From the NCBI GenBank assembly GCA_000004985.1, contig GG738885.1: a stretch of 64,000 bases of DNA. One strand, written 5' to 3'. Under the pieces are notes generated by a model, which was given only the letters and a program-made list of their open reading frames with translations, was not told the origin of the DNA and searched no databases. Of the stretch, positions 4,384 to 60,997 are shown piece by piece; positions within the stretch are counted from its first letter, which is position 1, and each line of letters opens with the position of its first letter. Both the position numbers and the translations under genes were made by a program. Source of the stretch: Naegleria gruberi. Taxonomy: Eukaryota.

Positions 4384-4702
4384 TTTGTTTTTTTGTTTTG
4401 ATTGTCTAAATGAGTGGAGTTGTAACTTGAATTTTAAATGGCATTGGAAAAGATTTGGGTGCTCATCACATCTATTAACTGTCTCTCCAAATTTCAAACT
4501 TGGAAACAAATGGAGAATTTGATGAAGTTATCAATTTATTGTGATGTTAGACATAAAACAAGGCCTAATTTGATCTATTGAGAAAATTTGTTGATTGTAT
4601 TCAAAAGAAACCAAAATTGAATGTATCACTCTCACCAAATCAGAATGTCTGTAATCTACTGTAGATCAAATGGTTAAACAAGTCATGATTCACTAAATTT
4701 AC

Positions 4703-28005: not shown

Positions 28006-30881
28006 TTACCACAAACATTGTTTCAACATGACCAAAATTCGTTTCCATTTTTCATTCTCTTTAGTGTCAGTATTTCTATTCGAATGCATGCCAATAATGT
28101 TTAAGAAAACTTGTTCTAACGAATCTTGATTCAAGGCAAATTCCTCAATTCCATTTCCAACCTTTCCTTCTTCCATGTGTTTGAATAAACCTGAGAGAGA
28201 TTTGATTTCTTCTTCCTCCTCTTCAATGTAAATGTTATTAGAAAGTGATATTGGAAAGTGTGGAATTTTGAAAATTGACATTGTTTCTGATAGAATTAAA
28301 TCCTTTCTTGCTTGTGGAACATACTTGAGCACATATTGTTCAGCCAAACTTTCGAATTGTTTCGGATAACTTATACTCAATACATAACCATCTCCAAACT
28401 TATTTTTCAATCTCAATCCAGATCCCAAACATTTAAATTCACCATTTGACATGATTGTCATCCTATCACACAAAACGTCAGCTTCTTCCATTGAGTGAGT
28501 TGTCAAAATGACAGTTCGATTCTTCTTTTGTTCTAAAATAATGTCCCATAAATGTCTTTTAGAAAGTGGATCTAATCCAGTGGTTGGTTCATCTAAGAGA
28601 ATTACCTTAGGATCTCCTATTAAGGAAATGGCAATTGACAGGCGACGTTTCATGCCTCCTGAGAGTGATTTTGAAGGTGGAGAATTCTTCATCTTGAGAG
28701 TTTCATTATCTAAACCAACTTGTTTCAATAAAGATTGAATGTGTTGTTTTTCATGTTTGATTTTGACAGCTTTCAATCTTGCATAAAATAATAAATGATC
28801 TTCACATGTCAAGTCTGGATATAAAATATCGAACTGAGAGGTCAGACCCATAATCTTGTGAATGGAATCCATTTCTGTACGAATATCTTTACCATATACG
28901 AAAGCAGTTCCAGAGCTAGGTCCAAACATTCCTGACAACATTGAAATAGTTGTTGATTTACCAGCTCCATTCAATCCCAATAAACCAAAGCATTCGGATT
29001 TACCAATTCTTAGACAAATATTGTTGACTGCTGTTTTTGAGTTGAATTTCTTTTCTAGATTAAAGAGAACAACACCAAAATCATTCTTCAACTTTCGAAT
29101 ATGTTCTTCCTGTTGATCTCGAGTAAGATTGGGTGGAGTTACTCGATTATTCTCCTCGGCAACATCTGAATCTATTGTTGCTATTTGATTTTCTTCATCT
29201 ATTGTTGGTTTTACTCTCTTTCCAGAGATTCGTTTCTTTAGAATATTTCTAAAAGGTTTCCATAACCAATTCATAAAGAAAAGTGGACTCTTTGACACGC
29301 CAAATGGTTGGGGAATGACAGCATCTAAATACAATCCAAGAATCATGTATACTAAACTCATTCCCAACATGTAAATCAACGAATAGAATACTGAGCTATT
29401 GTTGTAAATATCGACAAAGTTGGTGATGCAACCATTGCCAGAATTACACGCAGCTGTGGTAGCATATACGAAATGAGTGATTTGGAATGGAAAGATTGTC
29501 AAGATACCATATTTGGACTCTGGAACATTCGTATAAAGTGACGAATCTAGAATTACGCCAACCATTGGTCCAATAAGAACAATCAGATAGGAAACTATTG
29601 TGGCTACAATAGTAGTCCCAATACATGAAGATAATAAGAATGAGAAACTAATCAGCAAATTTCCCCACAATAAGAAAAATATAACTATTAGAAAGTTAGG
29701 AAACAAACATCTTTCCAACAACAATACTTACTCAAAATTATTGGGTTCGTCTTGGTAACAAAGCTGAAATTAAAGAGTGCAGAGAATATTATAAACATTA
29801 CAACTGAAATTGCATACATTCCATAAAAGAACATATACGAAACAAGAAAGTAATATCTCATCTTCATTCCCATAAGTTTCATCATTTCACGCAACTTGAA
29901 CTGCTTTTCCATGACAATTGTAAACGTAAAAGAAGGCAACAGCAAACATAATATCATTGGGAAAAACAATGAACCCAACAAATCCGAAATGTTAGCCGAA
30001 GGAAAACTAATGGTATAACTCATTTGAGATGTATAGGTTCTGATATTGTATCTACCAGTAATATTCTTCAAAAAGGCGTCATTCATCCAATGTTGCATGG
30101 AAACTCCCATTACATTTCTGCAACTTGTGATTACAAAGCTGATTGGAATGGTTTTGGACAAGTAGTCACAGAAAAGTGACTTTTCATTGGAATCGTATTG
30201 GATTGTGTAGTTTAAAATAGCTCTGGTTGATGTTGTCAATTGATTAATGATATAACCACCGACAGCATCAAGAGCATGTTTGGATTTTCCATCAGATGCC
30301 AATTTTTCATAAATGACATTTTCCATTTCTGTGCTATTGTTGAATGATGAGACAGAGTATGGAATTGATATCATACCAGTTGTTTCAAAAGTACCATTCA
30401 CTTGCATGGATGGAATTTTTCTTGAAAACGGACTGAAATCTTTCAAGAATCCATTCGAAACTCCAAACTTTGAAGAAAGTTGCCCAAAATTAATATTGTC
30501 CAGATAGTCCCTTCTATTGGAAGAAAAATAAATTGATTCTGGAGGATTGAAAGTCAAGTTTTGTGAATTCTTCACTTGAACCATCAGTTGAGATAGCTCA
30601 ACTGAGGTTGAGTTGACTTTCGTATTTGCCAAACCTTGTTCAGAAAGAAAATTATTGGTCAAATCTTTAGTAACCACTTGTAACAAGAATATAAACACCA
30701 AACAAATGACTGGAAAGAACAATAGACAGCAGTTGGACCTTCGTATTGATAATTCGAAACAATTCGAAAGAAACACTTACTTTTTCTGTTTCATTTGCAA
30801 TGAGAATGACTTGAAGAGTAAACCCCTAACTTGACTCAAATCTTTGGACAAGTTAGTGTCCATTATCAAGTCACTGTTCAT
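28006..30881 (-). CDS. ABC transporter, A subfamily half-transporter (TMD-NBD), three exons
   Basis: Exon 1 is 30881..30781 (MNSDLIMDTNLSKDLSQVRGLLFKSFSLQMKQK). A 42-nt intron (30739..30780) follows. Exon 2 runs 30738..29732 and begins KSNCCLLFFPVICLVFIFLL. The junction reproduces the ABCA N-terminus ([30 protein letters not shown]). A 47-nt intron (29685..29731) precedes exon 3 (29684..28006), which encodes the NBD with Walker A (LLGLNGAGKSTT), the signature (LSGGMKRRLSIAISLIG) and Walker B (ILLDEPTTGLDP). Confidence 0.85.
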
Positions 30882-31133
30882 TATTAAATATTTTAATTTT
30901 TTTGGATTCTTTACTTTTGAACTGTTTAGTCCATACTATTATATTAGTTAGTCATGATTCTAATGTAAATGTTGTTGGAAGCAAAAAGGAGGTGGAAAAG
31001 GAGTTTGGGGCTGCGGCGAATCCTAAATAGGTCAACTATAAGTCGAAAAGATATACTCGAAAGTAGTTTAAACTTGATAGATGATGAAAGCAACAAGAAA
31101 ATTGTCTCATATTTGAAAACTCCATAAAAAAGA

Positions 31134-33870
31134 ATGAAATATCTTGTTGAGGTGTTGAAACAAACACTTGTATTACTCAAGAAGAATGCCTTGCTATATG
31201 TAAGTGTTTCTTTATAGTTTCGTCTGACATGTAATTATTCCAAAGACAAGAAGATGGAAGTCCACATGTTTACAACTCGCTTCGCCAATCATTATTCTTG
31301 CCATCTTACTCATCATGTCTCTAATCATGGAAGTAAACTTTGACAAATCAATTCTTACTCAACCAACAAGAAATATTCATGAAATTGAAATTCCAAGAGA
31401 AGGAAATTCTAAAAAGTTACAATTCTATGAATGTAAAGCAGCACCTAATGTTCCATGCTACAAGATAGTCTACACATCTGATGGAATTTCATTTGGAGAA
31501 ACTGTCATGAGTCAACTTGTGTCAGATTATCAATTAAAACTTGACAAGGACTTTAAGAATTTCACATCTGTAAAAGAAATGGAAGCATGGATGTTTAGCC
31601 ACCAGAATGAAACAATGTTTGGTCTTGCGTTCATACCAAACTCCATTTTGGATACAGTTGATACTTTATCTTACACACTTTACTATAATAGGTCAAGAGA
31701 GGAATTACATTTTCCATTGTTGAGTTTACAAAACATAATTGATAACAATATAATCTATTTAAGAATGAAAGAGTTGAATAGAACTCAAGATTTGATGGAT
31801 TCTAGATACTCTGTCCAAGTTGACTATAAGAGTTTTCCTCAACCATTGACAACCAAAGATGGACAAACTTTAGTTTTCAAAATTTCAGGCCCAACCTTCT
31901 TCAGCATATCCGCAATGTTTATTTTAATTGTTTCTTTGAATAATTTGGTGGTTGAAAAAGAGTTTCGTCTCAGATTTTCAATGATCATGATGGGAATGAA
32001 AGAATCGGCATATTTCCTTTCATGGTTAATCACATTTTTAGTGATTAGTTTAGTTTTTGCTTTGGTGAATGTGTTGGGTGGAATGATCTTTCAAATGTCC
32101 ATATTTTTGAATGCAAATTTTGTTGTTTTGTTTCTTTTATTCTTTAGTTTCTCATTTTCACTTATTTGCCTTTCATTCTTTCTGTCAACTTTTATTAAGG
32201 AATCAAGAAATGCATTAATTCTTGGATTTACAGTTTTGGCTATATCATTTGTAAGTTCTCAATATTTTTTGTAATTTATAATATTGGAGAAAGATATTGA
32301 ACTTGACAGTTTCGAATGGAGGAATTGTTTATCTTCTCTATTCAGACAAAATTTCTCCCTTCTTCTATATCATCTTCTCATTCTATCCACCATTTAATTT
32401 TGCAAAGGTTTTCATTGATATTGCTTCTAAAACCTTACCTGAATACGATTCTGCACTGAGAAGATTTGTTAGTGGTCCTGGTTACTCTTTTACAGATTTT
32501 TTTGTTGGAAAGAACTCTTATGATTATGTACCTGCTTCTTGGATTGGAGTTGGTCTCTTGTTCCTAGACGGTTTGTTCTTTCTAATCCTGTATTGGTATT
32601 GTGACAATGTCATTTCTGATGGAAACGGTATTCGAAAGTCACCAATCTTTTTTCTCTATCCTTCCTATTGGGGAATTCAATGCTTTCGTTCAAAGGAACA
32701 CAAAGCACCATCAGATGATAACATTACCTTCTCCAAATTTGAAACAGATGATGTCAAGGTAGAATTTAAAAGAGCAAGAGATTGGAGTCAACCAGCAATT
32801 GTTAGAATCATTTCATTAAGGAAAACATTTTCTGGCTTTTTTTCAAGAATTGCACACAAAATACTTCCTCAAAAGTATGCTGACAAATTTTCAGAGAAGA
32901 AAGCACTCAAAGAGTTGAATCTTGTTGTGAGGGATAATGAATGTGTCAGTTTGTTAGGGCATAATGGAGCTGGCAAGTCAACTACAATGAATATTTTGAC
33001 AGGTTTGTTTGAGCAATCACATGGTGAGGCATATGTTTCTGATTTAGATGTTAAAACTTCCATTTCTGCTGTTAGAAAACAGCTTGGCATTTGTCCTCAA
33101 CATGACATTTTGTGGGATGATTTGACAGCTGAAGAACATTTGGAATTATTTGGAGATTTGAAAGGAATTCCAAGAAAAGAATGTAAAGAGCAAGTTAAAT
33201 CGTTATTAGATTCTGTCGAGCTGTCAAAAGTTGGACATCATTTGACAAAGACTTATTCTGGTGGAATGAAGAGAAGATTATCCATCTGTATTGCATGTAT
33301 TGGAAATCCTAAATTGATTCTTCTCGATGAACCAACAACTGGATTAGTAAGTAAGCTCTTCAATTATTCATTTACCAACTCTATTCGAAATAGGATCCCT
33401 ATTCAAGAAAGAAAGCTTGGAATTTAATTCACAACATGAAAAAAGGAAGAGCCATGATTTTGACAACACATGCAATGGATGAGGCTGATTATCTTTCGGA
33501 TAGAATTGCAATCATGGCCAATGGTGAGTTGAAATGTATTGGAACCTCACTTTCAATCAAATCTCAATATGGAAGTGGTTACAACTTGATGGTTGTGGCC
33601 AATTCAGGTCACGAAGATAGTATTCTCACATTAATCCAACATAAAGTTAAAGATCTCAAGGTTGTGAGTGAAAATGCTGGAAATTTCATATTTAACATTC
33701 CAAAGCATCAAGTGAGTGAACTTTCTGATTTGATTTCAGAAATGGAAAAGCAATCATCTAGAATAGATGGTATCATTAAGGATTGGGGAATTTCTCAAAC
33801 CACATTAGAAGAGGTCTACTTGAAAGTTACTCAAAAGTCAGAGTTTTCCTTTTCCAAAAACAAAACCTGA
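31134..33870 (+). CDS. ABC transporter, A subfamily half-transporter (TMD-NBD), four exons; divergent paralog of the upstream gene
   Basis: Exon 1 is 31134..31199 (MKYLVEVLKQTLVLLKKNALLY). A 46-nt intron (31200..31245) follows. Exon 2 (31246..32250) begins TRRWKSTCLQLASPIIILAILL. An approximately 43-nt intron precedes exon 3 (about 32294..33346), which encodes Walker A (LLGHNGAGKSTT) and the signature (YSGGMKRRLSICIACIG). A 47-nt intron (33347..33393) precedes exon 4 (33394..33870), which encodes DPYSRKKAWNLIHNMKKGRAMILTTHAMDEAD. Confidence 0.85.
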
Positions 33871-48485: not shown

Positions 48486-48497
48486 TTTCCCGCCAAA
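48486..48497 (+). promoter_or_regulatory. E2F-like element TTTCCCGCCAAA 42-53 bp upstream of the thymidylate kinase ATG
   Basis: The site taatatttcccgccaaataaa is nearly identical to the textbook E2F site TTTCGCGCCAAA. It lies upstream of an S-phase nucleotide-metabolism gene. Confidence 0.35.
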
Positions 48498-48538: not shown

Positions 48539-49186
48539 ATGTCTACAAACATTTCTAGAGGAGCCTTTATTGTTTTCGAAGGATTAGATCGATGTGGAAA
48601 AACTACCCAAACAAATAAATTGGTAGAATTATTGAAAAATCAATTCGGAGTAGTTCATGAAATTGCCTTCCCTGATAGAACAACTGAAACTGGAAAATTA
48701 TGTGATGAATATTTGCGAAACAAGAATAATTTGAATGATCGTGCTATTCACTTGATGTTTTCTGCTAACAGATGGGATAAGATGCAATGGATTCAAAAAA
48801 CACTCCTCTCCGGTGAGCATGTTGTTTGTGGAAGATATGCATACTCTGGTGTTGTTTATAGTGCTGCAAAGGGAATTGACAGAAAGTGGTGTAAATCACC
48901 AGATGTTGGTCTTATTGAACCTGACTTGGTGATTTATCTTCAAGTGGATCCATCTATTGCCTCTACAAGAAAAGAATATGGAAATGAAAGATATGAAAAG
49001 GAACAATTCCAAAAAGCTGTTAAGGAACAATTTGAAACTTTATTTGAAGAAGATGGTTATAAGAATGTTAAAGTTATCGATGGAACAAAGAGTATTGAAG
49101 AAATATCTGAAGAAATTGCAGAAATCACCAAATCAACAATAGAGAAAGTTAAGTCTGAACCTCTTAGAAAGTTGTGGAGTGAATAA
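48539..49186 (+). CDS. DTYMK: Thymidylate kinase (dTMP kinase)
   Basis: The P-loop GAFIVFEGLDRCGKTTQ, the DRYAYSGVVYSAAKG region and the LID-like segment are collinear with eukaryotic TMPK. The gene is a single exon starting 55 bp after the CDK stop. Confidence 0.9.
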   Translation: MSTNISRGAFIVFEGLDRCGKTTQTNKLVELLKNQFGVVHEIAFPDRTTETGKLCDEYLRNKNNLNDRAIHLMFSANRWDKMQWIQKTLLSGEHVVCGRYAYSGVVYSAAKGIDRKWCKSPDVGLIEPDLVIYLQVDPSIASTRKEYGNERYEKEQFQKAVKEQFETLFEEDGYKNVKVIDGTKSIEEISEEIAEITKSTIEKVKSEPLRKLWSE

Positions 49187-49214
49187 GTTTTTCAATACAA
49201 TATATGATAATTTA

Positions 49215-50952
49215 TTAATTTGAGATGAGATTGTTTTCATGAGCCCATTTGGCAATAATTTGAAGGATAATATTCTTTTCTTCTCTGCTTGAATTCTTCA
49301 ACATGTGGACAATATCACGTAAAGTTTCACTCGATTCCTTTCCTATTACTATTTGTTGGAATACACCTATACAAGCACCTCTCTTGCCTTCCCAAAATTC
49401 AGAATTCGAATCCAATCTTTCCAGAACATCGAAAGCCTTAGCAGCATAGTAATACGATCCAATCTTGTAACAATCATTAGCTATTAATTGGAGCAGATTC
49501 ATAGCATCTATTGAGGTTTCCATTTTCAAATATAATTCCCAAGCTAACTCTGGTTTGTTGTTCATAATGTAACATCTTGCTAACCAACTATTATATACAT
49601 AATCTCTCTTGTAACTTTCATCTGCAGCCATTGAAAGTGCTTTTTCTCCTTCCTTATAATTTCCAACAAATGCGTGAGCAATACCATAATTCCAATGGAA
49701 ATCACTATCATCTTGGAAGAAGTTTTCTACAGATTGAAGATATACTATTACATCGGCAAAACGTTTTGTCAAGAAGAAGCATGATGCCATACATTGTCTA
49801 CCTGGAATTGTGTCACATTCAGTATCTGATGTACCAACAAGTTGGAAGTAGTGTTCTGCGTTTTTGAGATGTTCTCTCGAATCGTGTAATTGTCCTTTAC
49901 ATGCATTAACAACACCCTTCAAAATATATTCACTTGCTTTCATTGGTTCCAAATCCTTAATTAATTCATATGCTTCATCTACATCTCCATTCTTTAAATG
50001 GTATATTACAAGGTTTAGCTTTGCTTCTGGTAAAATATCAAGAAGAGGAGGAAGCACTTGAAGAGCATTCTCTCCACTTCTGAAAACTACCATATTGTGC
50101 TTGATCAAATAGTTTTCAGCAGTATGTGAAGTTTGTTGGAGTTCTATAATTGGTTGGAGAACAGCTTCTGCTTTCTTTCCAGAATATGTCTTGAAGATGT
50201 TGCAAGCTCTAAGATTAAGTGCTGTTGGACTGTCTGGGTGTTTTTGAAGATAACTGCTCAGTACTTCCAAAGAAATATCAAAGAAATCTAATTTAAAGTA
50301 ACAAAGAGCTACATAGATTTGCAATGCTTCAAATGAACTGTCCTCCATCAATATATTTTTGTAAATATTTACAGCTGCTTGAACTTGGTTTCTAGAAAAG
50401 TGCATTGCAGCCAAACTCAATTGATCTTCAATATTGTTATCATTCAATTTTTTGTGACATTGATTCACTAAATCCTCTTTTTGGAGTTTATCTGCAACAT
50501 GGAACAAAATTCTATTTTGGAGTGGATTATCTGGACCTTTAATGCAAGCTTCATAAGCTTCTTCATATTCTCCTAAGAAGAAATAACAACAAGCAATATG
50601 AAGGAATACAAATGAATCCTTTGTTTTAGTGTATAACTCTTCCAAATATTCAATTGCTTTAGCGTATTCTCCTAAATGAAAACAACAATAGGCCAACCAT
50701 GGAAGTGTTGGTCTCACTCTTGGATGTTCCTTTCCGAGCCCCTTAAAGAACTAAAATACAAAATATTATTCCGACTTATCTTCTTATTAAACATACCTCC
50801 AACACTGCAATAGCACCAGAAAAATCACGTTGTTGTATCATTGATACGATATCAATTTCTGTTTGTTCCGTCTTTTTGGTGTTTGCAACAGGTTTCTTTG
50901 CCTGTTGGGCAGCTGCTGTTTTCAGCTTTCCTGTAACTGGTCGTTTGAACAT
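49215..50952 (-). CDS. IFT56: Intraflagellar transport protein 56 (TTC26 / DYF-13), two exons
   Basis: Exon 1 runs 50952..50797 (MFKRPVTGKLKT...MIQQRDFSGAIAVLE). A 46-nt GTATGT...TTTTAG intron (50751..50796) follows. Exon 2 begins FFKGLGKEHPRVRPTLPWLAYCCFHLGEY. TPR repeats run throughout. The N-terminus matches TTC26 (KRDFTGAITLLEFKRHVGEEE..LWIGYCAFHLGDYKRALEEYE). The stop lies 28 bp from the convergent TMPK stop. Confidence 0.85.
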
Positions 50953-51019
50953 TTTTTATTCTTGTTGTTGTTTTCTTAGAAGTGCAAGTAATTGAGGTTA
51001 GACGATTAATCGTAAACAG

Positions 51020-51031
51020 TTCGCGCCAAAA
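51020..51031. promoter_or_regulatory. E2F-like palindromic element TTCGCGCCAAAA, with a second GGCGCC 25 bp away, in the IFT56/coiled-coil bidirectional promoter
   Basis: The site cagttcgcgccaaaaccagttcaaagaaatggcgccacaaa lies in the 265-bp divergent intergenic region. Confidence 0.3.
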
Positions 51032-51217
51032 CCAGTTCAAAGAAATGGCGCCACAAACAATTAAAATTATTAAATTTATAAAAAATTCAAAGCTTTGCAG
51101 AACTACAACCTCTTGATAATAGATTATTCATAATATCTGCATTGAAATTGAATCAGAATCACGAATGATAGTTAATTGCTAGAGGAGGAAATATTGGAAT
51201 AATTATTAAAAGGAATC

Positions 51218-53011
51218 ATGAAACGAAGAGATGTCAAACCACCCGATTCAGCAAAAGGACTGATTTCAAGAGGAACCTCTGCAAAGGCAGGCACTTTAAT
51301 GAGACCTCAAAGTGAGTCAGTGAAGAAAACGTCAGAGTTTGGAGTTGTTAGGAATGTTCCATTTACAAAGGGTTTAAATACTGGTATGATGAATAATCAC
51401 TTTACATCACAAACCGAATCACAAAAGGATTTATTGGAAAAATTTAAAAGTGATAGTAGGGGTATTGCTAGTAAATTAACTCAACTCACAAAGAAAGTAT
51501 CTACCAAAAAACAACAAATCAAAAAGGTTGCTCATAACACCGAGTGGGGAAACGAATGGAAAAAGCTCAGAAAAATTCAAAGAGAGTTGGAAAGTGAAAT
51601 AGTGGACGAAATGAAGGCCGAGAGAGAAGAGTATTATTACGAAATAATGAACCAAGTTGAAGAGGGACAGAATAATCCTCTGAAATCAATTAGAGAAAGT
51701 ATTCATCGGCTTATTCTGGATAAAATTGAGAGGACAACGTGTGAGATATATAATTTAGAGAACGAAATCAATACCTTGTTTAAAAATTATGAGAGCTTAA
51801 ATCCCAACTCTATTGATATGGAAATTGATAATAATACATTCTCAGCGGATGAGTTTGTCAATAATATTTTGAGATCATTCAACTATTCCATAGACACGAC
51901 TTTAACCTTAATTCTTGAGGAGTTCAAGAAGAAGATCAATCAAATAATTGAGCTATACAAACAAGGGAAAGTTGTTCTTACTCCACATAATTGGGCAAGC
52001 GAGGATCATGAAAGATATAAACATGTTTATAGACAATATCAAAATGGAGAGCATTTTGGAAAGAATCTAGTATCATATTGGGAGCTACTGAAAAATACTC
52101 TTCCAACGAAATCGGAAACAGATATCAAAGATCATGATATGTGGTACAAGAAAGTTCACAAAATTGAGATCCACAAGATTAAGGAAAACAAGGAAAGACT
52201 TTTGAAAGATTTGGAAAAGATAGAGAGCATCAGTAAAGAGACAATCTCTTTTTATATCGAATCAGAGGAGAATAAGAAGAAAGAGGAATTGGAAAGGAAA
52301 CGGTTTAATGTTATTGCAGAAGAAGCTCGCAGAATGTTAGAGGAACAATTGATTTTGAAGGAAGAAAAAACCAAGGTAGACAATGAGAGAAAGGCCAAGG
52401 AGGAAGAAATCCGAAAGCAAGAGGAAGATGAAAGAGATTTGAGGGAAAGAGAGAGAAGAGAAAAGCTTAAAGAACAATTAGAGAAATATTTCAAAGAGAA
52501 GGAAGAAATCAATCAAATTCAAGAGGAGGAAAGAAAGAAAGAACAAGAAAGATTGAAAGAAGAACAAGTCCTAACCCAAAAACTCAATAAGGAAAGAGTA
52601 GACTTTAGAAAAAACAAAGAGTTTGAAAAGTTGGAAAAGAAAAAAGAAGAACAAAAAAAGAGAGAAGAGGAAGCTCTTAAAAGGGAGGCTCAACTCAATA
52701 AGCTCATAGAAAGTGTTTATGAGGAGATGAATTTATTGGAAATAGATATTGATACAAAACGTCTAAATCAACCAACTCAATCACTATTAAACAAGCAAAA
52801 GGAGGAAGAAGAGCAAGTTGAAAAGCTCAAACTTTATGGATATACTGCAGATCAATTAATGAAGGACAGAAAGTTCAAATTGCAACTCCTACTACAGGAA
52901 GCTGGATTACTCAATACTGATTATGCAAGAGAAATATTCAGTACATTGAAACCATCTCGATTGACAAGAGTAGATAATCTGACAACTGACCAAAAGACTC
53001 GCATCAACTAA
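51218..53011 (+). CDS. Charged coiled-coil protein (E/K/R-rich), hypothetical
   Basis: The 597-aa ORF is intact and starts on an ATG. Its central ~250 aa are E/K/R heptad-rich (EERKKEQERLKEEQ...). It shares a divergent promoter with IFT56. Confidence 0.55.
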   Translation: MKRRDVKPPDSAKGLISRGTSAKAGTLMRPQSESVKKTSEFGVVRNVPFTKGLNTGMMNNHFTSQTESQKDLLEKFKSDSRGIASKLTQLTKKVSTKKQQIKKVAHNTEWGNEWKKLRKIQRELESEIVDEMKAEREEYYYEIMNQVEEGQNNPLKSIRESIHRLILDKIERTTCEIYNLENEINTLFKNYESLNPNSIDMEIDNNTFSADEFVNNILRSFNYSIDTTLTLILEEFKKKINQIIELYKQGKVVLTPHNWASEDHERYKHVYRQYQNGEHFGKNLVSYWELLKNTLPTKSETDIKDHDMWYKKVHKIEIHKIKENKERLLKDLEKIESISKETISFYIESEENKKKEELERKRFNVIAEEARRMLEEQLILKEEKTKVDNERKAKEEEIRKQEEDERDLRERERREKLKEQLEKYFKEKEEINQIQEEERKKEQERLKEEQVLTQKLNKERVDFRKNKEFEKLEKKKEEQKKREEEALKREAQLNKLIESVYEEMNLLEIDIDTKRLNQPTQSLLNKQKEEEEQVEKLKLYGYTADQLMKDRKFKLQLLLQEAGLLNTDYAREIFSTLKPSRLTRVDNLTTDQKTRIN

Positions 53012-53059
53012 TTTATTACTACACTACTTTACACTATTGTACATATAATTTTTAACAAA

Positions 53060-53365
53060 CTACTTTGAATTTGTCTTTGAGGAATGAGGTTTTGCCTTTA
53101 AATCTCTGGAAAAAAGAGAAGAATGATTGATACGTTGCTCCTCTTTGAATGTCTTTACAGGACTGAATGTCTTGTAATGCCCAGCATAAAACAAGTTGGA
53201 ATTAGCTGTTAATGGTTCAGTTTTATGAGTCTTGTGGTGATCCTTCTTCAAGTGTTTCAGGTCTCTAGAGAATAACGAATAACTGCGCACATGTTCACTG
53301 TTAGATGTTCTCACAAAGAGATTGGAGAATTGAGTTGACTTTCTCTTGAGGGCACTAATGATCAT
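53060..53365 (-). CDS. Small basic K/S-rich hypothetical protein with an internal duplication (SLFSRDLK twice)
   Basis: The ORF-track start is TTG, and the first ATG is at 53365. There is no family assignment, and the ORF could be spurious. Confidence 0.25.
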   Translation of the reverse strand: MIISALKRKSTQFSNLFVRTSNSEHVRSYSLFSRDLKHLKKDHHKTHKTEPLTANSNLFYAGHYKTFSPVKTFKEEQRINHSSLFSRDLKAKPHSSKTNSK

Positions 53366-53635
53366 CTTTTTTTTGAATTGAAATATTTGTAAGGACCTAA
53401 ATGGTTGTAAAAATAGTTTCAAAAAGAACGCGAGAGGAGGAAAGGAAAATTTTCACTTAAGGCGAATGTACAAAAGTTACCAAAGAAACCATTGAAAATA
53501 ATCTGACCAGAAATGTAACGAAACTTTTCAGTTAAATTATTACCATTTCAAATTGAACCTATGAAAATCCAACAAAAAGAGATTCAATAATTATTATTAC
53601 AAAATAATTATTGAATTAATAATGCAAATAAAAAA

Positions 53636-54834
53636 ATGCTCAAAAACCAAACACTAGGAAATCACAATGGCAAACAATATAATTTTGGAAGGGAATTGCT
53701 CACCACCATCACCATGATGATTATTCTAGTTATCGGGTTGTGTACATTATTTTGTGCTCAACCATCGGAGGCTTCGGAAGTTGTAGCAATTGGTGATTTG
53801 CATGGAGACTATTCAATGTTTTTAGAATTATTAAATTATTTAAATCTTACGAGAGATGAGACGAGTGGATGGATCAATACTGGAGATGTTGAACTTATTC
53901 AGACAGGAGATGTTTTGGATAGAGGAGAATATGGATTGGAACTTGTTAGACTATTTATGAATAATACAAATAATTCTAAAGTTGAAATGTTAATAGGTAA
54001 ATATTTATTGATGATGTATTTTGGTCAACTTTGTTAGGGAATCACGAGGAATTAAATTTATTAGGAGCATTTCACTATGTAAATATTAATGAATATTCGG
54101 AAGAATATAAAGATTCAATGTTAAATAAGTCTTCATTGATAAGGAAATTCCTATTGAGTAGAAAGGTTGTGAAAATTGTTGATGGTGTAGTTTATGTGCA
54201 CGCTGGTATTTTACCATCATTCATTGAGAAGGAGGACTTTGCTAACAAGGAACCAAATGATATTGTGCAATATTTGAATGAAATTATATCAAATTTACTA
54301 GATCATCTCACTTCAATTCATGTGAGATCATCAAACTCATTACTAGGTCACAGAGGTCCACTTTGGCTCAGAGATTATTCAGAGGGAAGAAATTGTGAAA
54401 GTTTATACAGAGTTTTGGAAATTCTTGGTGCTAAACATATGGTGGTTGGTCATGAAATTCAACAAGATATTACCATCAGATGTTATGATCCAAAGAAACA
54501 AATGAGTGTTATTTGTATTGATATTGGAATGAGTAATGGATATGGAGGAGCAAATCCAAGTGCAATCAAAATTGTGGATGGAAAGACTTTATATGTTTAT
54601 GAGAACATTCCAACAGTTAGAATGGTTGACTTGGCTACCAATACTGTAATGCATTTGGATTCTAATGCATTTACTGGAGGATTCAGGATTGGAATTTTTG
54701 GAGTATTTATTTCCACTCTTTTCGTTGTGTTATTGACAATAGTCTTATGCAAACCACCAAAAGAAATAATTACAGATAAGGATGACATTCAAATTGTTTT
54801 TAATTTTGACAAGAATAAGGAACTGGGTCAATAA
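53636..54834 (+). CDS. Membrane-anchored calcineurin-like metallophosphatase (PPP/Shelph-like), two exons
   Basis: The metal-binding motifs are GDLHGD, GDVLDRG(EY) and, across the splice, GNHE. Exon 1 ends at 53996. A 41-nt GTAAAT...TTGTTAG intron (53997..54037) joins ..KVEMLI-G-NHEELNLL. The protein has an N-terminal TM (IILVIGLCTLFCA) and a C-terminal TM (IFGVFISTLFVVLLTIVLC). Confidence 0.7.
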
Positions 54835-54867
54835 ATTATTTTCATTTTCTGAAATCATTAATATAAA

Positions 54868-56808
54868 TTACTTTTTAAAAAATTCATTAAATTCTAATGA
54901 AGTATAATCCAAGAATGGAGCATCCCAACCATTGAATGTTGGTTGAGCTACAGAAATATCAATATTAATCTTTCCATCATTCATAGGTCTAAACATTATA
55001 CTATGTTCAGTGTAACCACGGCAAGCCCTTTGCAATACTTGTCTCATTTGAGAATTGCAATCAATTTCAGCAAGATGGGACGATTTGGTTTGCTCAGTAA
55101 TTGGTAATTCAATAGAACGAGCCCACTCATCAATCAAATTTGAAGCTGCTTGATATCTCCACATTGATGAAAATCCATTACCTTGACCAAAGTTCTTCAT
55201 TGAATCACGATCTCCACTTTCAACACCATAAAGATGATTGTGATTTGATGCTCCAATTGAATTGTTTACAAAATAAGGGTAAGCTTGACCAGGTACCCTC
55301 ATCATTCCACTCTTCCAATCTCCTTCATAGACAAAAGATGGTGGATACTTATTCGAAACGTTATTAACACGTCTAGAAAATACCAAGATACATCCAGTCA
55401 TACATGATCCACCCATTGTTCCCTTTCTAGATTCAATTTGCTGTTGAATGAAGGGTGGTGTTGCCATGGCAGCTGATGTTTTTTGAATAATATCCTTAAC
55501 AATCCATGCTACTATTGTTCCTTGTGACCATATTGTTCCAGGTTGATTAACTCCGTAATTCATCATTGAATAGACTCCATCTTCATTGATGGCACTCAAT
55601 GTTCCAATGAAACCAGGCCACATTACTGATACATATCTCTTATCTTGAGGATTATCAGATTCTACTGTAGTAATCAATACTGAATGAACAGTAACTTTCT
55701 TCATATCGATTTCTCCATCCATATTTCTAACAGAAATAATATTCGATTGTTGTTCCTTTGGACAGTTGGCAGATGTAAATTTACCCCAAACAGAAAATTG
55801 AGTACAAGCAGCATTACTATCAGATGATTTCTTTCTGTTCATTTTGATTCCTCCCTTAAGAGTTGAAAGTTCTCCTACTATTTTTGGAACACCATGTCTA
55901 CCAATATATTCCAATTCAATATATCCATTAATTGCAATGATATCAATTGGCAGAAATTTTCTTCCTAGCTCAGGAATAGTCAAATCAACTTTGGAATCCA
56001 ACATTCCAGAATAAACTCCTTGAATACCAGACATAAATTCCTTATCATAGGTGAATGCAGCACTATTCAAAGCAGGAACGTGTACATTAAGATAACTAGA
56101 AGCTGATTGAATTGTTCCTTCCAAAATATAAAATCTGAAAAAGTCAATTACATGTTGAGCCATAAGATATCCATGAGCATAACCTCTCTGAGCTTCATTT
56201 CCAAACAAAGATAACACAGGAAGTCCTTTAATAAATCTGAAATATCCGTATTGATGATAACCTTCCTTTGGATATGGAGTCACTCCTTCCACAATAAAAT
56301 CCAAATCATTTAAACTATTTCTTTCACTTGTTAATTTAATAACTTTGAAATATTCGGCTGGTCCATCTCTATACCATCCATTGAAGCTTGTAGTTTTCAT
56401 TCCAGAAACAATCTGTCCAAGAATTATATAATTTTGATTCAATTCAACATTGAATTTGTATCCAATTTGTGTACTTTTTGGATAATTATCGGACAACATT
56501 TGTAATTTTGTGAAATTTGTAAATTTTGGAGTCAAAGTTGTCAATTCTACCAAATCAGGAATATATGGATACGAATTATTATCACTTTCTACAATTTGTA
56601 ATTCATAAATTGAAATTTTAAGTGTGATCATTGATTGATCATCAATTAAAGCATTATATTGATTCGGATTATTAATTTTTAATGTAATCAAGCCTCCAAT
56701 ATTATTTTGCGAAGTGGTGATGATTGTTGTATGGCCATATTCAAAAACTCCTCCCAACATGACCAACAAAACCATCAACAAATAAATTAATTTGATTTGA
56801 GCTGACAT
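54868..56808 (-). CDS. Secreted hydrolase-like protein (possible Ntn-hydrolase / peptidase C45-like)
   Basis: A signal peptide (MSAQIKLIYLLMVLLVMLGGVFEYGH) leads the 646-aa ORF. An internal AACTQFSVWG segment resembles the Gly/Ala-Cys autoprocessing site of Ntn hydrolases. The fold assignment is tentative. Confidence 0.45.
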   Translation of the reverse strand: MSAQIKLIYLLMVLLVMLGGVFEYGHTTIITTSQNNIGGLITLKINNPNQYNALIDDQSMITLKISIYELQIVESDNNSYPYIPDLVELTTLTPKFTNFTKLQMLSDNYPKSTQIGYKFNVELNQNYIILGQIVSGMKTTSFNGWYRDGPAEYFKVIKLTSERNSLNDLDFIVEGVTPYPKEGYHQYGYFRFIKGLPVLSLFGNEAQRGYAHGYLMAQHVIDFFRFYILEGTIQSASSYLNVHVPALNSAAFTYDKEFMSGIQGVYSGMLDSKVDLTIPELGRKFLPIDIIAINGYIELEYIGRHGVPKIVGELSTLKGGIKMNRKKSSDSNAACTQFSVWGKFTSANCPKEQQSNIISVRNMDGEIDMKKVTVHSVLITTVESDNPQDKRYVSVMWPGFIGTLSAINEDGVYSMMNYGVNQPGTIWSQGTIVAWIVKDIIQKTSAAMATPPFIQQQIESRKGTMGGSCMTGCILVFSRRVNNVSNKYPPSFVYEGDWKSGMMRVPGQAYPYFVNNSIGASNHNHLYGVESGDRDSMKNFGQGNGFSSMWRYQAASNLIDEWARSIELPITEQTKSSHLAEIDCNSQMRQVLQRACRGYTEHSIMFRPMNDGKINIDISVAQPTFNGWDAPFLDYTSLEFNEFFKK

Positions 56809-56981: not shown

Positions 56982-59900
56982 ATGACATCATTAGATTGGC
57001 TGCAAGTGAGCGGAATTCGTTCCTTCGATCACACAAGTGGAGCACAAACGATCAAATTCTTCAAGCCTTTGACAATTATTTTGGGAGCCAATGGTGCGGG
57101 AAAGGTTTGTACTAGTAAAATTATATAAATATTAATATTAATATGCGATCAAATATTAAATTATGATAGACGACAATTATTGAATGTTTGAAATGTGCAA
57201 CAACAGGTGAATTGCCACCAAATTGTGATCGTGGTAAATCATTTATACACGATCCCAAAGTTTCGGGTGATTCGGAAGTAAAAGGTCAAATTAGGCTTCA
57301 ATTCAAGTCTGGCAACAAGAAACGATACATCACAGTAAGAAGTTTTCAAGTTTCACAGAAAAAGAAAACAACTCAGTTTAAACAATTGGAGGCTGTACTA
57401 CAGACTAAAGGAGAAGATGGAGAAGTGAAGAGTAATAGTTACAAATGTACAGATATGGATAAATTGATTCCGGAATGTATGGGTGTTAGCAAAGCTATTT
57501 TGGAAAATGTTATATTTTGCCATCAGGAAGAAGTAAATTGGCCACTCAGTGACAGTTTATCTTTAAAGAAAAAGTTGGATGATATTTTCTCTAGTACCAG
57601 ATATTCTAAAGCTTTGGAGGCTATTAAAAAAACAAAGAAAGAGATAGGACAACAACTTTCGGATTATGAAAAGGAATTGGCTGTAGCTGAAACAGAAAAA
57701 TCTCAATCTGTCAAGCTGAAAAAAGAAGCTGAATCAGAAATTGTTAAACTACAAAAATTGAAGGAAAGTATGGAAAAATATGAAACAGAAATGCAAGAAA
57801 TTGGTGATAAGGTATCAAAATATGAAGGCGTTATCGAAAAAATCAATAGCTTGAAACAAAAATTCACTGAGAAGGATACTCAAAAGAAAATGCTTCAAAA
57901 GCAAGTAGCTGAGCTCTATGCCGGTTTGGAACAAGAATTCACTGAGACTGACCAGGAGGTGGAAGATTTTGAGAAAAATTTCAAGAAACAACTCGAGAAC
58001 TTGAACCAGAGCAAGATAACCACCGAAAGCTCACTGAAAACAAATGAAGTAACAAAGAATTCTGTGAACAAGGAATTGAATGGCCTGAATGAAGAATTGG
58101 GAAAGCTCAAGTCCTTTAAGGAAACTCATGAGAGTAAATTAATGGATATCAGTGCTGAAATATTCACTTTAGCTGAGAGATACAAGATTTCTGGATATGA
58201 CCAATTGCCACTTAATGAAAGTCAAATTGACGCATTTTCTAAAGTGATTTCAAAACTTTATGAAGATAACAAGAAAGCTTTTGATACCTTGAAAATGCAA
58301 CACAAGTCAGAAGTCGATCAACTTACTAAGGAAATGAACGTTGCCCACCAAAAGAAGGAAACCGTTCTCAAACAAGTTAAAGTTACAGAGCAACTCAAGA
58401 CGAAATATGAGAGAGAAGAAAAAGATTTGAAAGAAAAACTTAGTAAGATTAATACTAATGCAGCTATTGTTAAGAAGGCAGAAGAAGAATTCCAACAATT
58501 AAAAACAGCACTGAAAGAAAAGCAAGAAAAGAAAGAATCTGAAAGTTTCAAAAATCAAATAGAATCAAATAATAAGCAATCTAAAGAAATCACTCAAAAG
58601 ATTTCCTCCATCAATAAGGAACTCACATCCAGAGAAAAAGAGAAGGAAATTAGTTTCAAGATACAAAATCTGAAGGAAGAACTCACCAAACACAACTCTT
58701 CCCTAGAAGAAAAGCTTCTAGACCTTAAAGGACGTTACGAAACTGTTTTAGGTGTTCAAGAAAATGATGTAACAACAGCCAACATTGAACCAAAGATCAA
58801 AAACCTTATTAAGAAAAGCACGGAACAAGTTAATGCTAAAAACGTTTCTATTCAATCGACAGAGAAGAGCATTTCTGTAACCAAATCTAAACTTGAATCT
58901 ATTACAAACCAGGAAAAGAAGATTAAGAGAGACATTGAAACCAAAGAAAAGAATGTCGAATCAGTGCTTCCTTCTGGTAAGTCTTGGGAAGAGGCTATGA
59001 GTGAAGCTGAAGAAGCTGTTTCTGATTTAAGAAACGAGGTCAGTTTGACAGAGGCTCTCAAAATGTGTTATGAAAACTTTGTAAAGCACGCTCGTACAAA
59101 CCATCAATGTCCTGTTTGTGAAAGAGGCATGAACACAGAAGAATGCTCTACTTTTGAAAGTTTACAAATGACCAAGCTTGAACAAACTCCAAAGTTTCTC
59201 CAAAAGAAGAAAGCCAAGTTAGAAGTGGCTATCCAACAACAAGAAAAGATTAGAGAAATCAAACCAATTATTACAACTATCCAAAACTTGAAGAGTAAGG
59301 ATCTTCCAGATGCAGAAAAAGAACTTGCATCTCTGAATGAAGAAGTACAAAGACTCAACTCTATTGTTTCTAAATTCACACAAGAACTCGATACTCTCAA
59401 GCAAGAAGAAAAGAAAGCCAACGATCTTTTACCTAGTGTTGCTGATTTGAAAATCTTACAATCAGCTATTCGTTCAAGTCAACAACGTTTAACTGAGCAA
59501 GAAAATGAACTCAAAAAACTTGGACTTCCAGAGGATCTTGTACCATACGAAGACTTGAAGCGAAATCTTGAAGAATCCCAAACTTTGAGAGAGAAACTTG
59601 CCCAACAAAATCAAAACTTACAAGTTGAATTGGAGAAAGCCCAGAGTGAGTTAACAAAACTCAATAACGAGGTTCACCAAAAGCAAAATTTATTACAAAA
59701 ATTACAATTTGAATTGAAGGAAATGGAAAGATTAAATGAAAGTCTTGCACAAAAACAAAAAGATTTGCAACAAACAATCACTGATATTGAAAAACAACAA
59801 CAAGATATACCTACCCTTGAAAAGACGGAGCAAAATCTTAACACCTCACTAACAGAATTGAAAGAAAAGCATAGAAAGGAAGAATACATCATGGAAGGTA

Positions 59901-60997
59901 CAGTCACTGAGTATCAACAAGAGCTTTCAAAATTGAATGCCCTGACAATGGAAATTAGGAAGTACAGAGAAAGAAACGTTGAAGACAATCTCAGTACTGT
60001 TCAAATGAAAATTGCCAAACTAGAGGTAAGATTGGAAGAAAATAAGAAGGAATATGAAACCCTTTCCGAGAATCTCAAAAAGTACAACAGCATGCTTGAA
60101 AAGCAAAATGTTATCAAAAAGAATATTGAATCCAATCTCAAATACAGAGCAAAGAAGAAGGAAAATCAACAAGTATCAGATGAATGTGATAAACTCTCTG
60201 CTGAAATTGAAAAAATCACAGGTAGTGATGCATCCTTAGATAGTTACCAAGATATCAAATCCCTCAAAGAGAGACAAACAGAATTATCGAACAAGAGATC
60301 ACAAATATCAGGTGCCAGAAGTACCATAAAGAATAGAGTTAAATCTATTCAAGATGATCTTAACTCTGATCAATACAAGGATATCGATAACAAGCACAAA
60401 TCCTTATTGATCAAACTGGTAACTACCAAGCATGCTGTAGAAGATTTGGATAAATACTCAAAAGCTTTGGAAAAGGCATTGACAAAATACCATAGTATGA
60501 AAATGGCTGAAATTAATGAAATTATCAAAGAACTTTGGCAAAAGACTTACAGAGGTAACGATATTGATACCATTTGCATCAAATGTGATACTGAAACAGA
60601 AAATAGTAGAAAGACTTATAATTACCGAGTTGTAATGGTAAAAGGTGATGTGGAATTGCAAATGAGAGGACGTTCTTCTGCTGGTCAAAAAGTATTGGCC
60701 TGTTTGATTATTAGATTAGCTCTTGCTGAAGCATTCAGTATTGACTGTGGTATTTTGGCTCTTGACGAACCAACAACTAATCTGGATTTGGACAATATTA
60801 ACAGTTTGGCCGAATCTTTACGATTCCTGATTGAAGATAGAAGAAAATTGTCAAACTTCCAACTCATTGTCATTACTCACGACGAAGAGTTTGTGAAAAA
60901 GCTTGGAAGAGCAGAATTTGTGGAAAATTACTATAGAATTTCTAAGGATCCAAGAAATGGAGGTTCCATGATTGAACAACAAAAGATTGCTGAATAA
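56982..60997 (+). CDS. RAD50: DNA repair protein RAD50, two exons
   Basis: Exon 1 is 56982..57104 (MTSLDWLQVSGIRSFDHTSGAQTIKFFKPLTIILGANGAGK, the Walker A P-loop). A 65-nt GTTTGT...GATAG intron (57105..57169) follows. Exon 2 begins TTIIECLKCATTGELPP. The protein has a long coiled coil with a zinc hook (HQCPVCERG), and a C-terminal signature/D-loop region (SAGQKVLACLIIRLALAEAF, LALDEPTTNLD). Confidence 0.92.

What the first reader, a model, noticed from the sequence alone, without database searches (positions are those of the whole stretch)
49215..53011. IFT56 implies a flagellate; its divergently transcribed coiled-coil neighbour is a candidate flagellar component
A bona fide IFT56/TTC26 gene is retained only in organisms that build cilia or flagella. 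Together with AT-richness, about 1.8 kb per gene and 40-67-nt introns, this fits an amoeboflagellate such as Naegleria. That placement is an inference. The 597-aa E/K-rich coiled-coil gene shares the 265-bp promoter and could be co-regulated during flagellar assembly.
Basis: partly seen in the sequence, partly recalled or inferred. Interest (0 to 1): 0.5.

Follow-up and report, generated by a model that had tools for sequence, protein, structure and literature searches.

The report
Naegleria IFT56 and CCDC148 gene pair
This is a correct but largely ordinary finding.

Summary
IFT56 lies on the minus strand at 49215-50952 with one 46-nt intron. A single-exon 597-aa gene lies at 51218-53011 on the plus strand, and the spacer between them is exactly 265 bp.

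Both proteins are identical to Naegleria gruberi records: XP_002674317.1 (named 'TTC26') and XP_002674247.1 ('predicted protein'). IFT56 matches Chlamydomonas IFT56 (PDB 8bd7_E) over its full length with E = 1e-176.

The neighbour is not a generic E/K-rich protein. It is a full-length orthologue of CCDC148:
- It carries Pfam PF27813.
- hhalign against metazoan CCDC148 gives probability 99.8%.
- It scores 117 bits against a CCDC148 HMM but 18 bits against the paralogue CCDC112.

Mouse Ccdc148 was localised, as an overexpressed GFP fusion, to the base of the central-pair foundation of motile cilia. Comparative genomics had already placed CCDC148 in cilia-specific clusters. Relatives in Willaertia, a euglenid and an oomycete contradict a 2024 statement that the family reaches only as far as choanoflagellates.

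The head-to-head pair is kept in N. fowleri, N. lovaniensis and Willaertia. The spacer keeps an E2F-type GC-rich palindrome (TGGCGCCA).

Co-induction during differentiation could not be checked, because the expression tables were cut or not held. Verdict: a new member of a known kind, of modest interest.

The parts
49215..50750 (-). IFT56/TTC26 exon 2, including the stop codon
   Evidence: Full-length match to Chlamydomonas IFT56 8bd7_E. Exact match to XP_002674317.1.
50751..50796 (-). IFT56 intron 1, 46 nt, GTATGT...TTTTAG
   Evidence: The intron position after residue 52 is kept in N. fowleri, N. lovaniensis and Willaertia.
50797..50952 (-). IFT56 exon 1, 52 codons from the ATG at 50952
50953..51217 (.). 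265-bp divergent spacer between the two ATGs; presumed bidirectional promoter
   Evidence: The orthologous spacers are 95 bp (N. fowleri), about 112-181 bp (N. lovaniensis) and 58 bp (Willaertia).
51020..51031 (.). E2F-type site TTCGCGCCAAAA; the minus strand reads TTTTGGCGCGAA, and TTTGGCGC matches TTTSSCGS
   Evidence: It lines up with GTGGCGCCAAACCAG in N. lovaniensis.
51046..51053 (.). Palindrome TGGCGCCA, the only copy in the 64-kb window
   Evidence: The same 8-mer is in the orthologous spacer of N. fowleri and N. lovaniensis. Willaertia has TTTTGGCGGCAAA. Only 0.02% of shuffled spacer triplets share a 6-mer with at least 5 G/C.
51218..53011 (+). CCDC148 orthologue (NAEGRDRAFT_70667), single exon, 597 aa
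51980..52162 (+). Conserved three-helix middle unit, aa 255-315, family motif GGW..DH..F...Y...R...RL..LP.....L..H..W
52115..52729 (+). One predicted ~200-residue E/K/R-rich helix, aa 300-504
52829..52987 (+). Conserved C-terminal motif, aa 538-590: GYT......D.RFRL..ALR.AGL....YAR.......P....R.D. It marks CCDC148 as against CCDC112.
   Evidence: The CCDC112 HMM matches Ng only to residue 532, short of this tail, whereas the CCDC148 HMM runs to residue 590.
48539..49186 (+). Thymidylate kinase gene, convergent with IFT56 and part of the conserved three-gene block; not part of the flagellar pair
   Evidence: Pfam Thymidylate_kin in the orthologous loci.

Best explanation
The region is a head-to-head gene pair of Naegleria gruberi.

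The minus-strand gene encodes IFT56 (TTC26/DYF13). This is a TPR-solenoid subunit of the IFT-B1 part of intraflagellar-transport trains. In Chlamydomonas and vertebrates it is needed to carry motility-related proteins into the flagellum.

The plus-strand gene encodes the Naegleria orthologue of CCDC148. Its predicted layout is:
- N-terminal coiled coils;
- a small three-helix unit of SANT/Myb-like shape;
- a ~200-residue charged helix;
- a short, highly conserved C-terminal helical motif.

By homology with mouse Ccdc148, it most likely forms a rod-like structural element at the flagellar base. That would place it in the distal basal-body lumen, at the foundation of the central pair, rather than in the axoneme proper.

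The two genes are probably switched on together during amoeba-to-flagellate differentiation from the short shared spacer. That spacer carries a conserved E2F-type GC-rich palindrome.

Shown: the gene models, the organism, IFT56 identity, CCDC148 orthology, conservation of the pairing, and conservation of the motif.

Inferred: where the protein sits in Naegleria, co-induction, and any role of the motif.
For: Identity and organism:
- Exact look-up of both proteins in N. gruberi.
- IFT56 against 8bd7_E gives E = 1e-176 over the full length, with TPR Pfam hits.
- IFT56 function is taken from PMC3936282 and PMC10191852 (listed).

CCDC148 orthology:
- The database-precomputed Pfam hit is PF27813 'CCDC148' for the three Naegleria proteins.
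- A profile search of 1.84 billion representative proteins gave 284 hits. Nearly all match from profile position ~240 to ~600 and end at their own C-terminus.
- Named hits include CCDC148-like proteins of Branchiostoma and Bolinopsis.
- BLASTP against Nematostella CCDC148 is collinear, 73-590 against 45-609, E = 1e-15.
- hhalign gives probability 99.8%, E = 1e-29, over 464 columns.
- The protein scores 116.8 bits against a metazoan CCDC148 HMM and 17.7 bits against a vertebrate CCDC112 HMM.
- Almost all family-conserved residues are kept.

Cilium link:
- GFP-Ccdc148 sits at the proximal central-pair foundation in mouse ependymal cilia (PMC11781205).
- It is a hub of the airway ciliary co-expression module (PMC3338421).
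- It is in cilia-specific phylogenetic clusters and in the CilioGenics top 500.
- The family is absent from all solved axoneme models by sequence. That fits a location outside the axoneme.

Pairing and motif:
- The thymidylate kinase / IFT56 / CCDC148 block is kept in N. fowleri, N. lovaniensis and Willaertia. In Willaertia the outer flanks differ.
- The spacer motif is conserved.
- Another IFT-B gene, IFT81, rises by about 12-15 log2 units in differentiation (Kennard et al. Data S2 row).
Against: - No expression value for either gene was obtained, so co-induction is not shown.
- Divergent neighbours with short spacers are common in this compact genome, at about 1.8 kb per gene.
- The whole ~14 kb is collinear among the Naegleria species. 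The conserved block also includes a non-flagellar gene, thymidylate kinase. Conservation of the pairing is therefore not specific evidence for co-regulation.
- The mouse localisation rests on an overexpressed GFP fusion, which its authors say needs validation.
- CCDC148 evolves fast: 50% identity within Naegleria against 90% for IFT56. Its function could have drifted.
- The E2F-type sites elsewhere in the window precede DNA-metabolism genes. The motif is therefore not a 'flagellar' element as such.
Confidence: 0.75

Rival explanations
1. The two genes are neighbours only because of inherited gene order in a compact genome. Each has its own regulation, and the spacer motif serves one of them or neither.
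For: - The whole block, including thymidylate kinase, is collinear in three Naegleria species. The trio is also kept in Willaertia.
- The window is 81% open frame, so short divergent spacers are the norm.
- The motif lies closer to the IFT56 ATG in all four species, at 24-94 bp.
Against: - Both genes belong to cilium-linked families.
- The Willaertia spacer is only 58 bp, which leaves little room for two independent promoters.
- The only conserved non-AT element of the spacer is a palindrome, which reads the same in both directions.
Confidence: 0.3
2. The neighbour is a CCDC148-family protein, but in Naegleria it does something unrelated to flagella. For example, it could have a nuclear or chromatin role through its SANT/Myb-like three-helix unit, or a role at mitotic structures.
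For: - E2F-type sites in the spacer resemble those in front of RAD50, SPT16 and thymidylate kinase.
- No localisation data exist outside mouse.
Against: - The family's phylogenetic profile is cilia-specific.
- Every named relative found comes from a lineage with flagellated stages.
Confidence: 0.12
3. The neighbour corresponds to CCDC112, the paralogue in the same Pfam family, rather than to CCDC148.
For: CCDC112 proteins carry the same PF27813 hit and share the middle W..DH..F / LP.K..H..WY unit.
Against: - It scores 116.8 bits against the CCDC148 HMM and 17.7 bits against the CCDC112 HMM.
- The CCDC112 HMM match stops at Ng residue 532, whereas the CCDC148 match runs to 590 through the conserved C-terminal GYT...RFRL..ALR.AGL...YAR tail.
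- All 120 listed CCDC112 hits are vertebrate, which suggests a late duplication.
Confidence: 0.04

Closest known systems
IFT56 / TTC26 / DYF13 (Chlamydomonas IFT-B1 subunit, PDB 8bd7 chain E; mammalian TTC26)
   Same: Full-length collinear similarity (E = 1e-176), the same length class (563 against 555 aa), and a TPR solenoid.
   Different: Nothing notable. UniProt already names it TTC26 for N. gruberi.
CCDC148 (Pfam PF27813; mouse Ccdc148 of the central-pair foundation, PMC11781205)
   Same: - The same order of parts over the whole length.
- The conserved N-terminal H..W..E..L motif.
- The middle GGW..DH..F...LP...H..W unit.
- The RV..R and DP.R....T motifs.
- The C-terminal GYT...D.RFRL..ALR.AGL...YAR...P...R.D tail.
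   Different: - Only about 20-23% identical to animal proteins.
- Localisation and function in Naegleria are untested.
- It lies in Discoba, far outside the range (Metazoa plus choanoflagellates) that the localisation paper reported.
CCDC112 (vertebrate paralogue in the same Pfam family)
   Same: It shares the middle three-helix unit and the E/K-rich helix.
   Different: The Naegleria protein scores 100 bits lower against CCDC112 than against CCDC148. It also keeps the CCDC148-type C-terminal tail.
E2F/DP binding sites (consensus TTTSSCGC, palindromic TTTGGCGCCAAA), and E2F4/5-Multicilin control of multiciliogenesis in vertebrates
   Same: - The sequence of the spacer elements matches the consensus.
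- In this window the same pattern sits just upstream of RAD50, SPT16 and thymidylate kinase, which are typical E2F-type targets.
- E2F, DP and Rb families are reported across eukaryotes, including Excavata (PMC4862756).
- The consensus itself and the vertebrate E2F4/5 link are from my own knowledge.
   Different: No binding or expression evidence exists. Naegleria has no known Multicilin. The N. fowleri copy has only two flanking T's.

Membership tests
IFT56 / TTC26 / DYF13 | Full-length sequence similarity to an experimentally defined IFT56 | tested here: met
   phmmer against PDB: 8bd7_E 'Intraflagellar transport protein 56', E = 1.1e-176, query 18-559 against chain 12-552. The next hits (IFT70) are at about 1e-10 only.
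IFT56 / TTC26 / DYF13 | TPR-repeat solenoid of about 550 aa | tested here: met
   Multiple TPR-type Pfam hits across the protein: ANAPC3, TPR_19, TPR_14 and others.
IFT56 / TTC26 / DYF13 | Found in an organism that builds flagella and has other IFT-B genes | tested here: met
   Exact match to N. gruberi. N. gruberi IFT52 and IFT81 gene entries appear in Kennard et al. supplements.
IFT56 / TTC26 / DYF13 | Assembly into IFT-B1 through IFT46, and movement along the flagellum | not testable with these tools
   This needs biochemistry or imaging.
CCDC148 (PF27813) | Match to the family's Pfam model | tested here: met
   The precomputed Pfam column gives PF27813.1 (named CCDC148) for the N. gruberi, N. 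fowleri and N. lovaniensis proteins. The local Pfam copy lacks this model, so it could not be re-scored. My own HMM of 8 metazoan CCDC148 sequences gives 116.8 bits, covering HMM positions 186-604 of 610.
CCDC148 (PF27813) | Collinear full-length architecture with the family's conserved motifs, including the C-terminal tail | tested here: met
   BLASTP against Nematostella CCDC148, 73-590 against 45-609. hhalign probability 99.8%. Conserved residues W110, W259, H264, P296, H306, R464, T520, D550, L559, G563, Y569, A570 and R584 are kept.
CCDC148 (PF27813) | Closer to CCDC148 than to the paralogue CCDC112 | tested here: met
   116.8 against 17.7 bits. No tree was built.
CCDC148 (PF27813) | Localisation at the ciliary base / central-pair foundation | not testable with these tools
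   Known only for a GFP fusion in mouse ependymal cells.
CCDC148 (PF27813) | Expression tied to ciliogenesis | not tested
   Naegleria differentiation tables were cut before jgi_70667 or not held.
E2F/DP-regulated promoter | Consensus site TTTSSCGC close to the start of the gene | tested here: met
   TTTGGCGC at 51023-51030 (minus strand), with TGGCGCCA at 51046-51053, lying 68-94 bp from the IFT56 ATG.
E2F/DP-regulated promoter | The site is conserved in orthologous promoters | tested here: met
   N. fowleri has TTGGCGCCAA, N. lovaniensis GTGGCGCCAAA, and Willaertia TTTTGGCGGCAAA. It is the only such site in the 13.8-kb N. lovaniensis and 17.7-kb Willaertia loci; N. fowleri has no strict TTTSSCGS match, only the TTGGCGCCAA variant.
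E2F/DP-regulated promoter | Binding by an E2F/DP factor and dependence of transcription on it | not testable with these tools
   This needs EMSA, ChIP or a reporter assay.

The most novel reading that the evidence does not exclude
An E2F/DP-type factor acts on the conserved palindrome in the IFT56-CCDC148 spacer and helps to drive or gate the flagellar gene programme of heteroloboseans. This would be an ancient counterpart of the E2F4/5-dependent ciliogenesis programme of vertebrate multiciliated cells. It would also be a first handle on cilia-gene transcription in an organism that lacks RFX, FOXJ1 and XAP5. In parallel, CCDC148 would be an ancestral eukaryotic component of the central-pair anchoring structure, not a holozoan addition.
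Probability: 0.15. Interest if true: 0.7.

Novelty: new member of a known kind. Interest (0 to 1): 0.35.

Why it matters
- IFT56 in Naegleria is already annotated and adds nothing new.

- The useful result is that NAEGRDRAFT_70667, an anonymous 'predicted protein', gets a name: CCDC148. With relatives in Willaertia, a euglenid, an oomycete and an ichthyosporean, the family spans at least three eukaryotic supergroups. The one localisation paper proposed that it arose near the animal-choanoflagellate ancestor.

- Naegleria builds basal bodies and 9+2 flagella from scratch within about an hour. That makes it a convenient system for asking what CCDC148 does at the base of the central pair.

- The conserved E2F-type palindrome is a cheap, testable lead on an open question. 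A 2025 review states that the transcription factors for cilia genes in Naegleria are unknown.

Tried and rejected
Expression during differentiation (none of these routes gave a value for either gene):
- Kennard et al. Data S2 is stored only in part and stops long before jgi_70667 and jgi_80690. The '70667' hits were digits inside numbers.
- The PMC copy of that preprint holds no supplements.
- The published version, PMC11753955, is not held.
- Fritz-Laylin & Cande 2010 is not held by PMC id or by DOI.
- The EMBO Reports 2024 supplements hold nothing relevant.
- No paper mentions the locus tags or accessions.
- The CilioGenics publication table truncates its cells, so it cannot show whether TTC26 was in the Naegleria set.

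Protein searches that led nowhere:
- The local Pfam copy gave no family for the neighbour, because it lacks PF27813.
- PDB sequence searches with the single protein and with a 73-sequence profile gave only spurious coiled-coil hits.
- Foldseek against PDB gave nothing; the best E was 0.68, to BAR domains.
- The AFDB library was not available, so no organism-labelled fold hits could be obtained.

DNA comparisons:
- The first word-indexed homology search found only Naegleria proteins, because E/K-rich words swamped the candidate list.
- MAFFT alignment of the four spacers was uninformative, so I used shared k-mers instead.

Considered and rejected:
- That TGGCGCCA is a general Naegleria promoter element. 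It occurs once in 64 kb.
- That the E2F-like site serves thymidylate kinase. That gene has its own promoter on the far side of IFT56.
Full report
**Observation.** On the minus strand an ATG at 50952 opens a 52-codon exon (50952..50797). A 46-nt GT..AG intron follows (50796..50751), then a 1536-nt exon ending with the stop at 49215. The spliced product is 563 aa. On the plus strand a single open frame at 51218..53011 encodes 597 aa. The two ATGs are 265 bp apart. The second protein is 15.6% Glu and 13.9% Lys overall. Residues 300-506 are 26% Glu, 19% Lys and 9% Arg.

**Organism.** An exact-sequence look-up found both spliced proteins, first residue to last, in Naegleria gruberi. They are XP_002674317.1 / NAEGRDRAFT_80690 (UniProt D2VNY8, 'Tetratricopeptide repeat protein 26') and XP_002674247.1 / NAEGRDRAFT_70667 (D2VNY9, 'predicted protein'). 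Both lie on a 362,555-bp scaffold. G+C is about 33% across the window.

**IFT56.** phmmer against all PDB chains gives Chlamydomonas IFT56 from the in-situ IFT-B train structure. The hit is 8bd7_E at E = 1.1e-176, aligned 18-559 against 12-552. The next hits, the related TPR protein IFT70, are only at about 1e-10. Pfam shows TPR-type repeats along the protein. The gene is 90% identical among the three Naegleria species and 69-86% identical to Willaertia magna, and the first intron sits at the same place. IFT56 is an IFT-B subunit needed to move motility-related proteins into flagella (PMC3936282; structure paper PMC10191852; both listed). It was already correctly named in UniProt.

**The neighbour is a CCDC148 orthologue.** The local Pfam copy found nothing, and PDB sequences gave only spurious coiled-coil hits. 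A word-indexed search returned only the N. fowleri (50% identity) and N. lovaniensis (49%) orthologues. However, their precomputed Pfam column showed PF27813, which the gene tables name 'CCDC148'.

I then searched 1.84 billion representative proteins with a profile of the three Naegleria sequences. This gave 284 hits at E of 1e-3 or better. Almost all match from profile position ~240 to ~600 and run to their own C-terminus, which is the signature of one coherent family rather than of composition. The named hits are:
- Willaertia magna, E = 1e-105;
- the ichthyosporean Chromosphaera perkinsii;
- the euglenid Entosiphon sulcatum;
- the oomycete Thraustotheca clavata;
- 'CCDC148-like' proteins of Branchiostoma and the ctenophore Bolinopsis.

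A further search from the Branchiostoma protein brought in named CCDC148 from Nematostella, sea urchin, abalone, sharks, teleosts and a rodent. Direct comparisons agree:
- BLASTP of the Naegleria protein against Nematostella CCDC148 is collinear over 73-590 against 45-609, with E = 1e-15.
- Profile-profile comparison with eight metazoan CCDC148 sequences gives probability 99.8% and E = 1e-29 over 464 columns.

I recalled from memory that CCDC112 is a paralogue. A search with a remembered human CCDC112 fragment confirmed this. The hits are named CCDC112, many carry PF27813, and all 120 listed are vertebrate. HMMs that I built locally score the Naegleria protein at 116.8 bits against CCDC148 (HMM positions 186-604 of 610) and 17.7 bits against CCDC112.

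In a 73-sequence family alignment the Naegleria protein keeps nearly every residue conserved in at least 80% of members. It also keeps the family motifs H..W..E..L, GGW..DH..F...Y...R...RL..LP....L..H..W, N..RV..R, DP.R....T and the C-terminal GYT......D.RFRL..ALR.AGL....YAR.......P....R.D.

**What is known about CCDC148.**
- Its function in mouse was uncharacterised until a 2024 study found it by proximity labelling from Cep131. A GFP fusion localised to the proximal part of the 'central-pair foundation'. This is a rod that extends from the distal basal body through the transition zone and holds the central microtubules of motile cilia. The authors caution that the fusion was overexpressed (PMC11781205).
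- It is a hub of the airway ciliary co-expression module (PMC3338421).
- It is in the cilia-specific phylogenetic-profile clusters, among the listed targets of cilia-related transcription factors, and in the top 500 of CilioGenics. That study's species set includes N. gruberi (PMC11317154).
- The 2024 localisation paper reported homologues only down to choanoflagellates. It inferred that the two-part foundation was 'initially formalized' there. The heterolobosean, euglenid and oomycete relatives found here argue instead for an ancient origin. That also fits the cilia-specific profile.

**Architecture.** With the 73-sequence alignment, AlphaFold2 gives a mean pLDDT of 75.3 (57 with three sequences). 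The predicted elements are:
- long helices at 58-151 and 158-194, and a helix at 227-249;
- a three-helix unit at 261-276, 284-294 and 300 onwards;
- a third helix that continues as one ~200-residue charged helix to residue 504;
- a small C-terminal helical unit at 544-576.

**Gene arrangement.** In N. fowleri, N. lovaniensis and Willaertia magna the CCDC148 gene is again head-to-head with IFT56, and thymidylate kinase is convergent behind IFT56. The spacers are 95 bp, 181 bp as annotated (about 112 bp with a better start codon) and 58 bp. Among the Naegleria species the whole ~14 kb is collinear. In Willaertia only this trio is shared and the outer neighbours differ. The pairing is therefore old. 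But because a non-flagellar gene is part of the conserved block, this is not specific proof of shared regulation.

**Spacer motif.** The four spacers do not align, yet they share one GC-rich element.
- TGGCGCCA is present in all three Naegleria species: window 51046-51053, L001 5940-5947 (within AGTTGGCGCCAACT) and L003 5861-5868.
- Willaertia has TTTTGGCGGCAAA.
- It is the only TGGCGCCA in the 64-kb window. GGCGCC occurs twice, and the other copy is inside a coding repeat.
- Only 0.02% of shuffled spacer triplets share any 6-mer with at least 5 G/C.
- N. gruberi has a second copy, TTCGCGCCAAAA, at 51020-51031.

From my own knowledge, this is the form of the palindromic E2F/DP site (TTTGGCGCCAAA; consensus TTTSSCGC).

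**The same pattern elsewhere in the window.** TTTSSCGS occurs 7 times in the window, against 1.9 expected. All six independent sites fall in the 19% of the window that lies outside long open frames, with P of about 5e-5. They lie shortly upstream of the following genes:
- RAD50;
- SPT16;
- thymidylate kinase, where the site is a perfect TTTCCCGCCAAA;
- a GH31-like gene;
- an unknown gene;
- the IFT56/CCDC148 pair.

The thymidylate-kinase site is not kept in the other species, whereas the IFT56/CCDC148 site is. E2F, DP and Rb families are reported across eukaryotes, including Excavata (PMC4862756). A 2025 review states that Naegleria lacks RFX, FOXJ1 and XAP5, and that its cilia-gene regulators are unknown (PMC12183034). 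This is a lead, not a result.

**Co-regulation.** I could not obtain an expression value for either gene. The stored copy of the Kennard et al. table stops far before these identifiers, and the other sources are not held or are truncated. The visible part of that table shows IFT81 rising by about 12-15 log2 units in differentiation. Strong induction of IFT56 is therefore expected, but it is not shown here.

**Most likely mechanism.** IFT56 works as in other flagellates, as a cargo-adaptor subunit of IFT-B1. The CCDC148 orthologue is most likely a rod-shaped structural protein at the base of the flagellum. Its conserved C-terminal motif and three-helix unit would serve as docking surfaces, and the long charged helix as a spacer. 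Both genes are probably activated together when amoebae build basal bodies and flagella. That may happen through the conserved palindrome in the very short shared spacer. The steps from 'orthologue' to 'location' and 'co-induction' are inferences.

**Rival explanations.**
- Adjacency by inherited synteny, without shared control. This is plausible, at about 0.3.
- A non-flagellar role for the neighbour, at about 0.12.
- CCDC112 rather than CCDC148 identity, at about 0.04. This was tested and disfavoured.

**Verdict.** The IFT56 part is already known. The neighbour is a new, unnamed member of a known but poorly understood cilium-linked family, and its presence in Discoba corrects a published view of that family's age. 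The E2F-type promoter element is the only potentially surprising item, and it remains untested. Interest is modest.

Noticed in passing
window 11966, 20814, 23514, 48486-48497, 51023, 57096: The E2F-type pattern TTTSSCGS occurs 7 times, against 1.9 expected. Every site lies in non-coding DNA shortly upstream of an ATG. The genes concerned are RAD50 (57188-60997), SPT16 (exon-1 ATG at 20776), thymidylate kinase (TTTCCCGCCAAA, 42-53 bp upstream of 48539), a GH31-like gene, an unknown 1122-aa gene, and the IFT56/CCDC148 spacer. This suggests that canonical E2F sites are working promoter elements in Naegleria.
   Followed up: partly
L001 3340-3455, L003 3290-3390, L004 5255-5450: The perfect E2F-like site in front of N. 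gruberi thymidylate kinase is absent from the orthologous promoters of N. fowleri, N. lovaniensis and Willaertia. The IFT56/CCDC148 spacer site, by contrast, is retained.
   Followed up: partly
L003 about 5932-6003: The N. lovaniensis CCDC148 gene model (XP_044554243.1, 592 aa) appears to start 23 codons too late. An in-frame upstream ATG encodes MMMTRERVSIRSAGANLQQKSSV, which matches the N. fowleri N-terminus MSNRERASIRSALPNTQQKASSI.
   Followed up: partly
window 49187-49214: The stop codons of thymidylate kinase (+) and IFT56 (-) are only 28 bp apart, so the two convergent mRNAs probably overlap at their 3' ends.
   Followed up: no
window 13504-15070: Two adjacent plus-strand open frames are made of many tandem copies of a ~36-aa unit, roughly ELRNDREIVLEAVKQNGxALxYAS. 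The family was not identified.
   Followed up: no
window 19-2535 and 2701-4509: There is a teneurin-like EGF/NHL-repeat protein and an 'animal haem peroxidase' domain protein (E = 1e-123). These are animal-type domain families in a heterolobosean.
   Followed up: no
window 28006-33427: There is a cluster of ABC-transporter pieces: two ABC_tran ATPase open frames and an ABC2_membrane_3 frame, on both strands.
   Followed up: no
L001 7857-10247, L003 7811-10147 against window 53012-54900: Downstream of CCDC148, N. fowleri and N. lovaniensis have a gene of about 780-800 aa with no Pfam hit. N. gruberi shows different, smaller open frames there: 53060-53422 on the minus strand, and a metallophosphatase-like 53636-54834 on the plus strand. 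Synteny may therefore break just after the pair.
   Followed up: no
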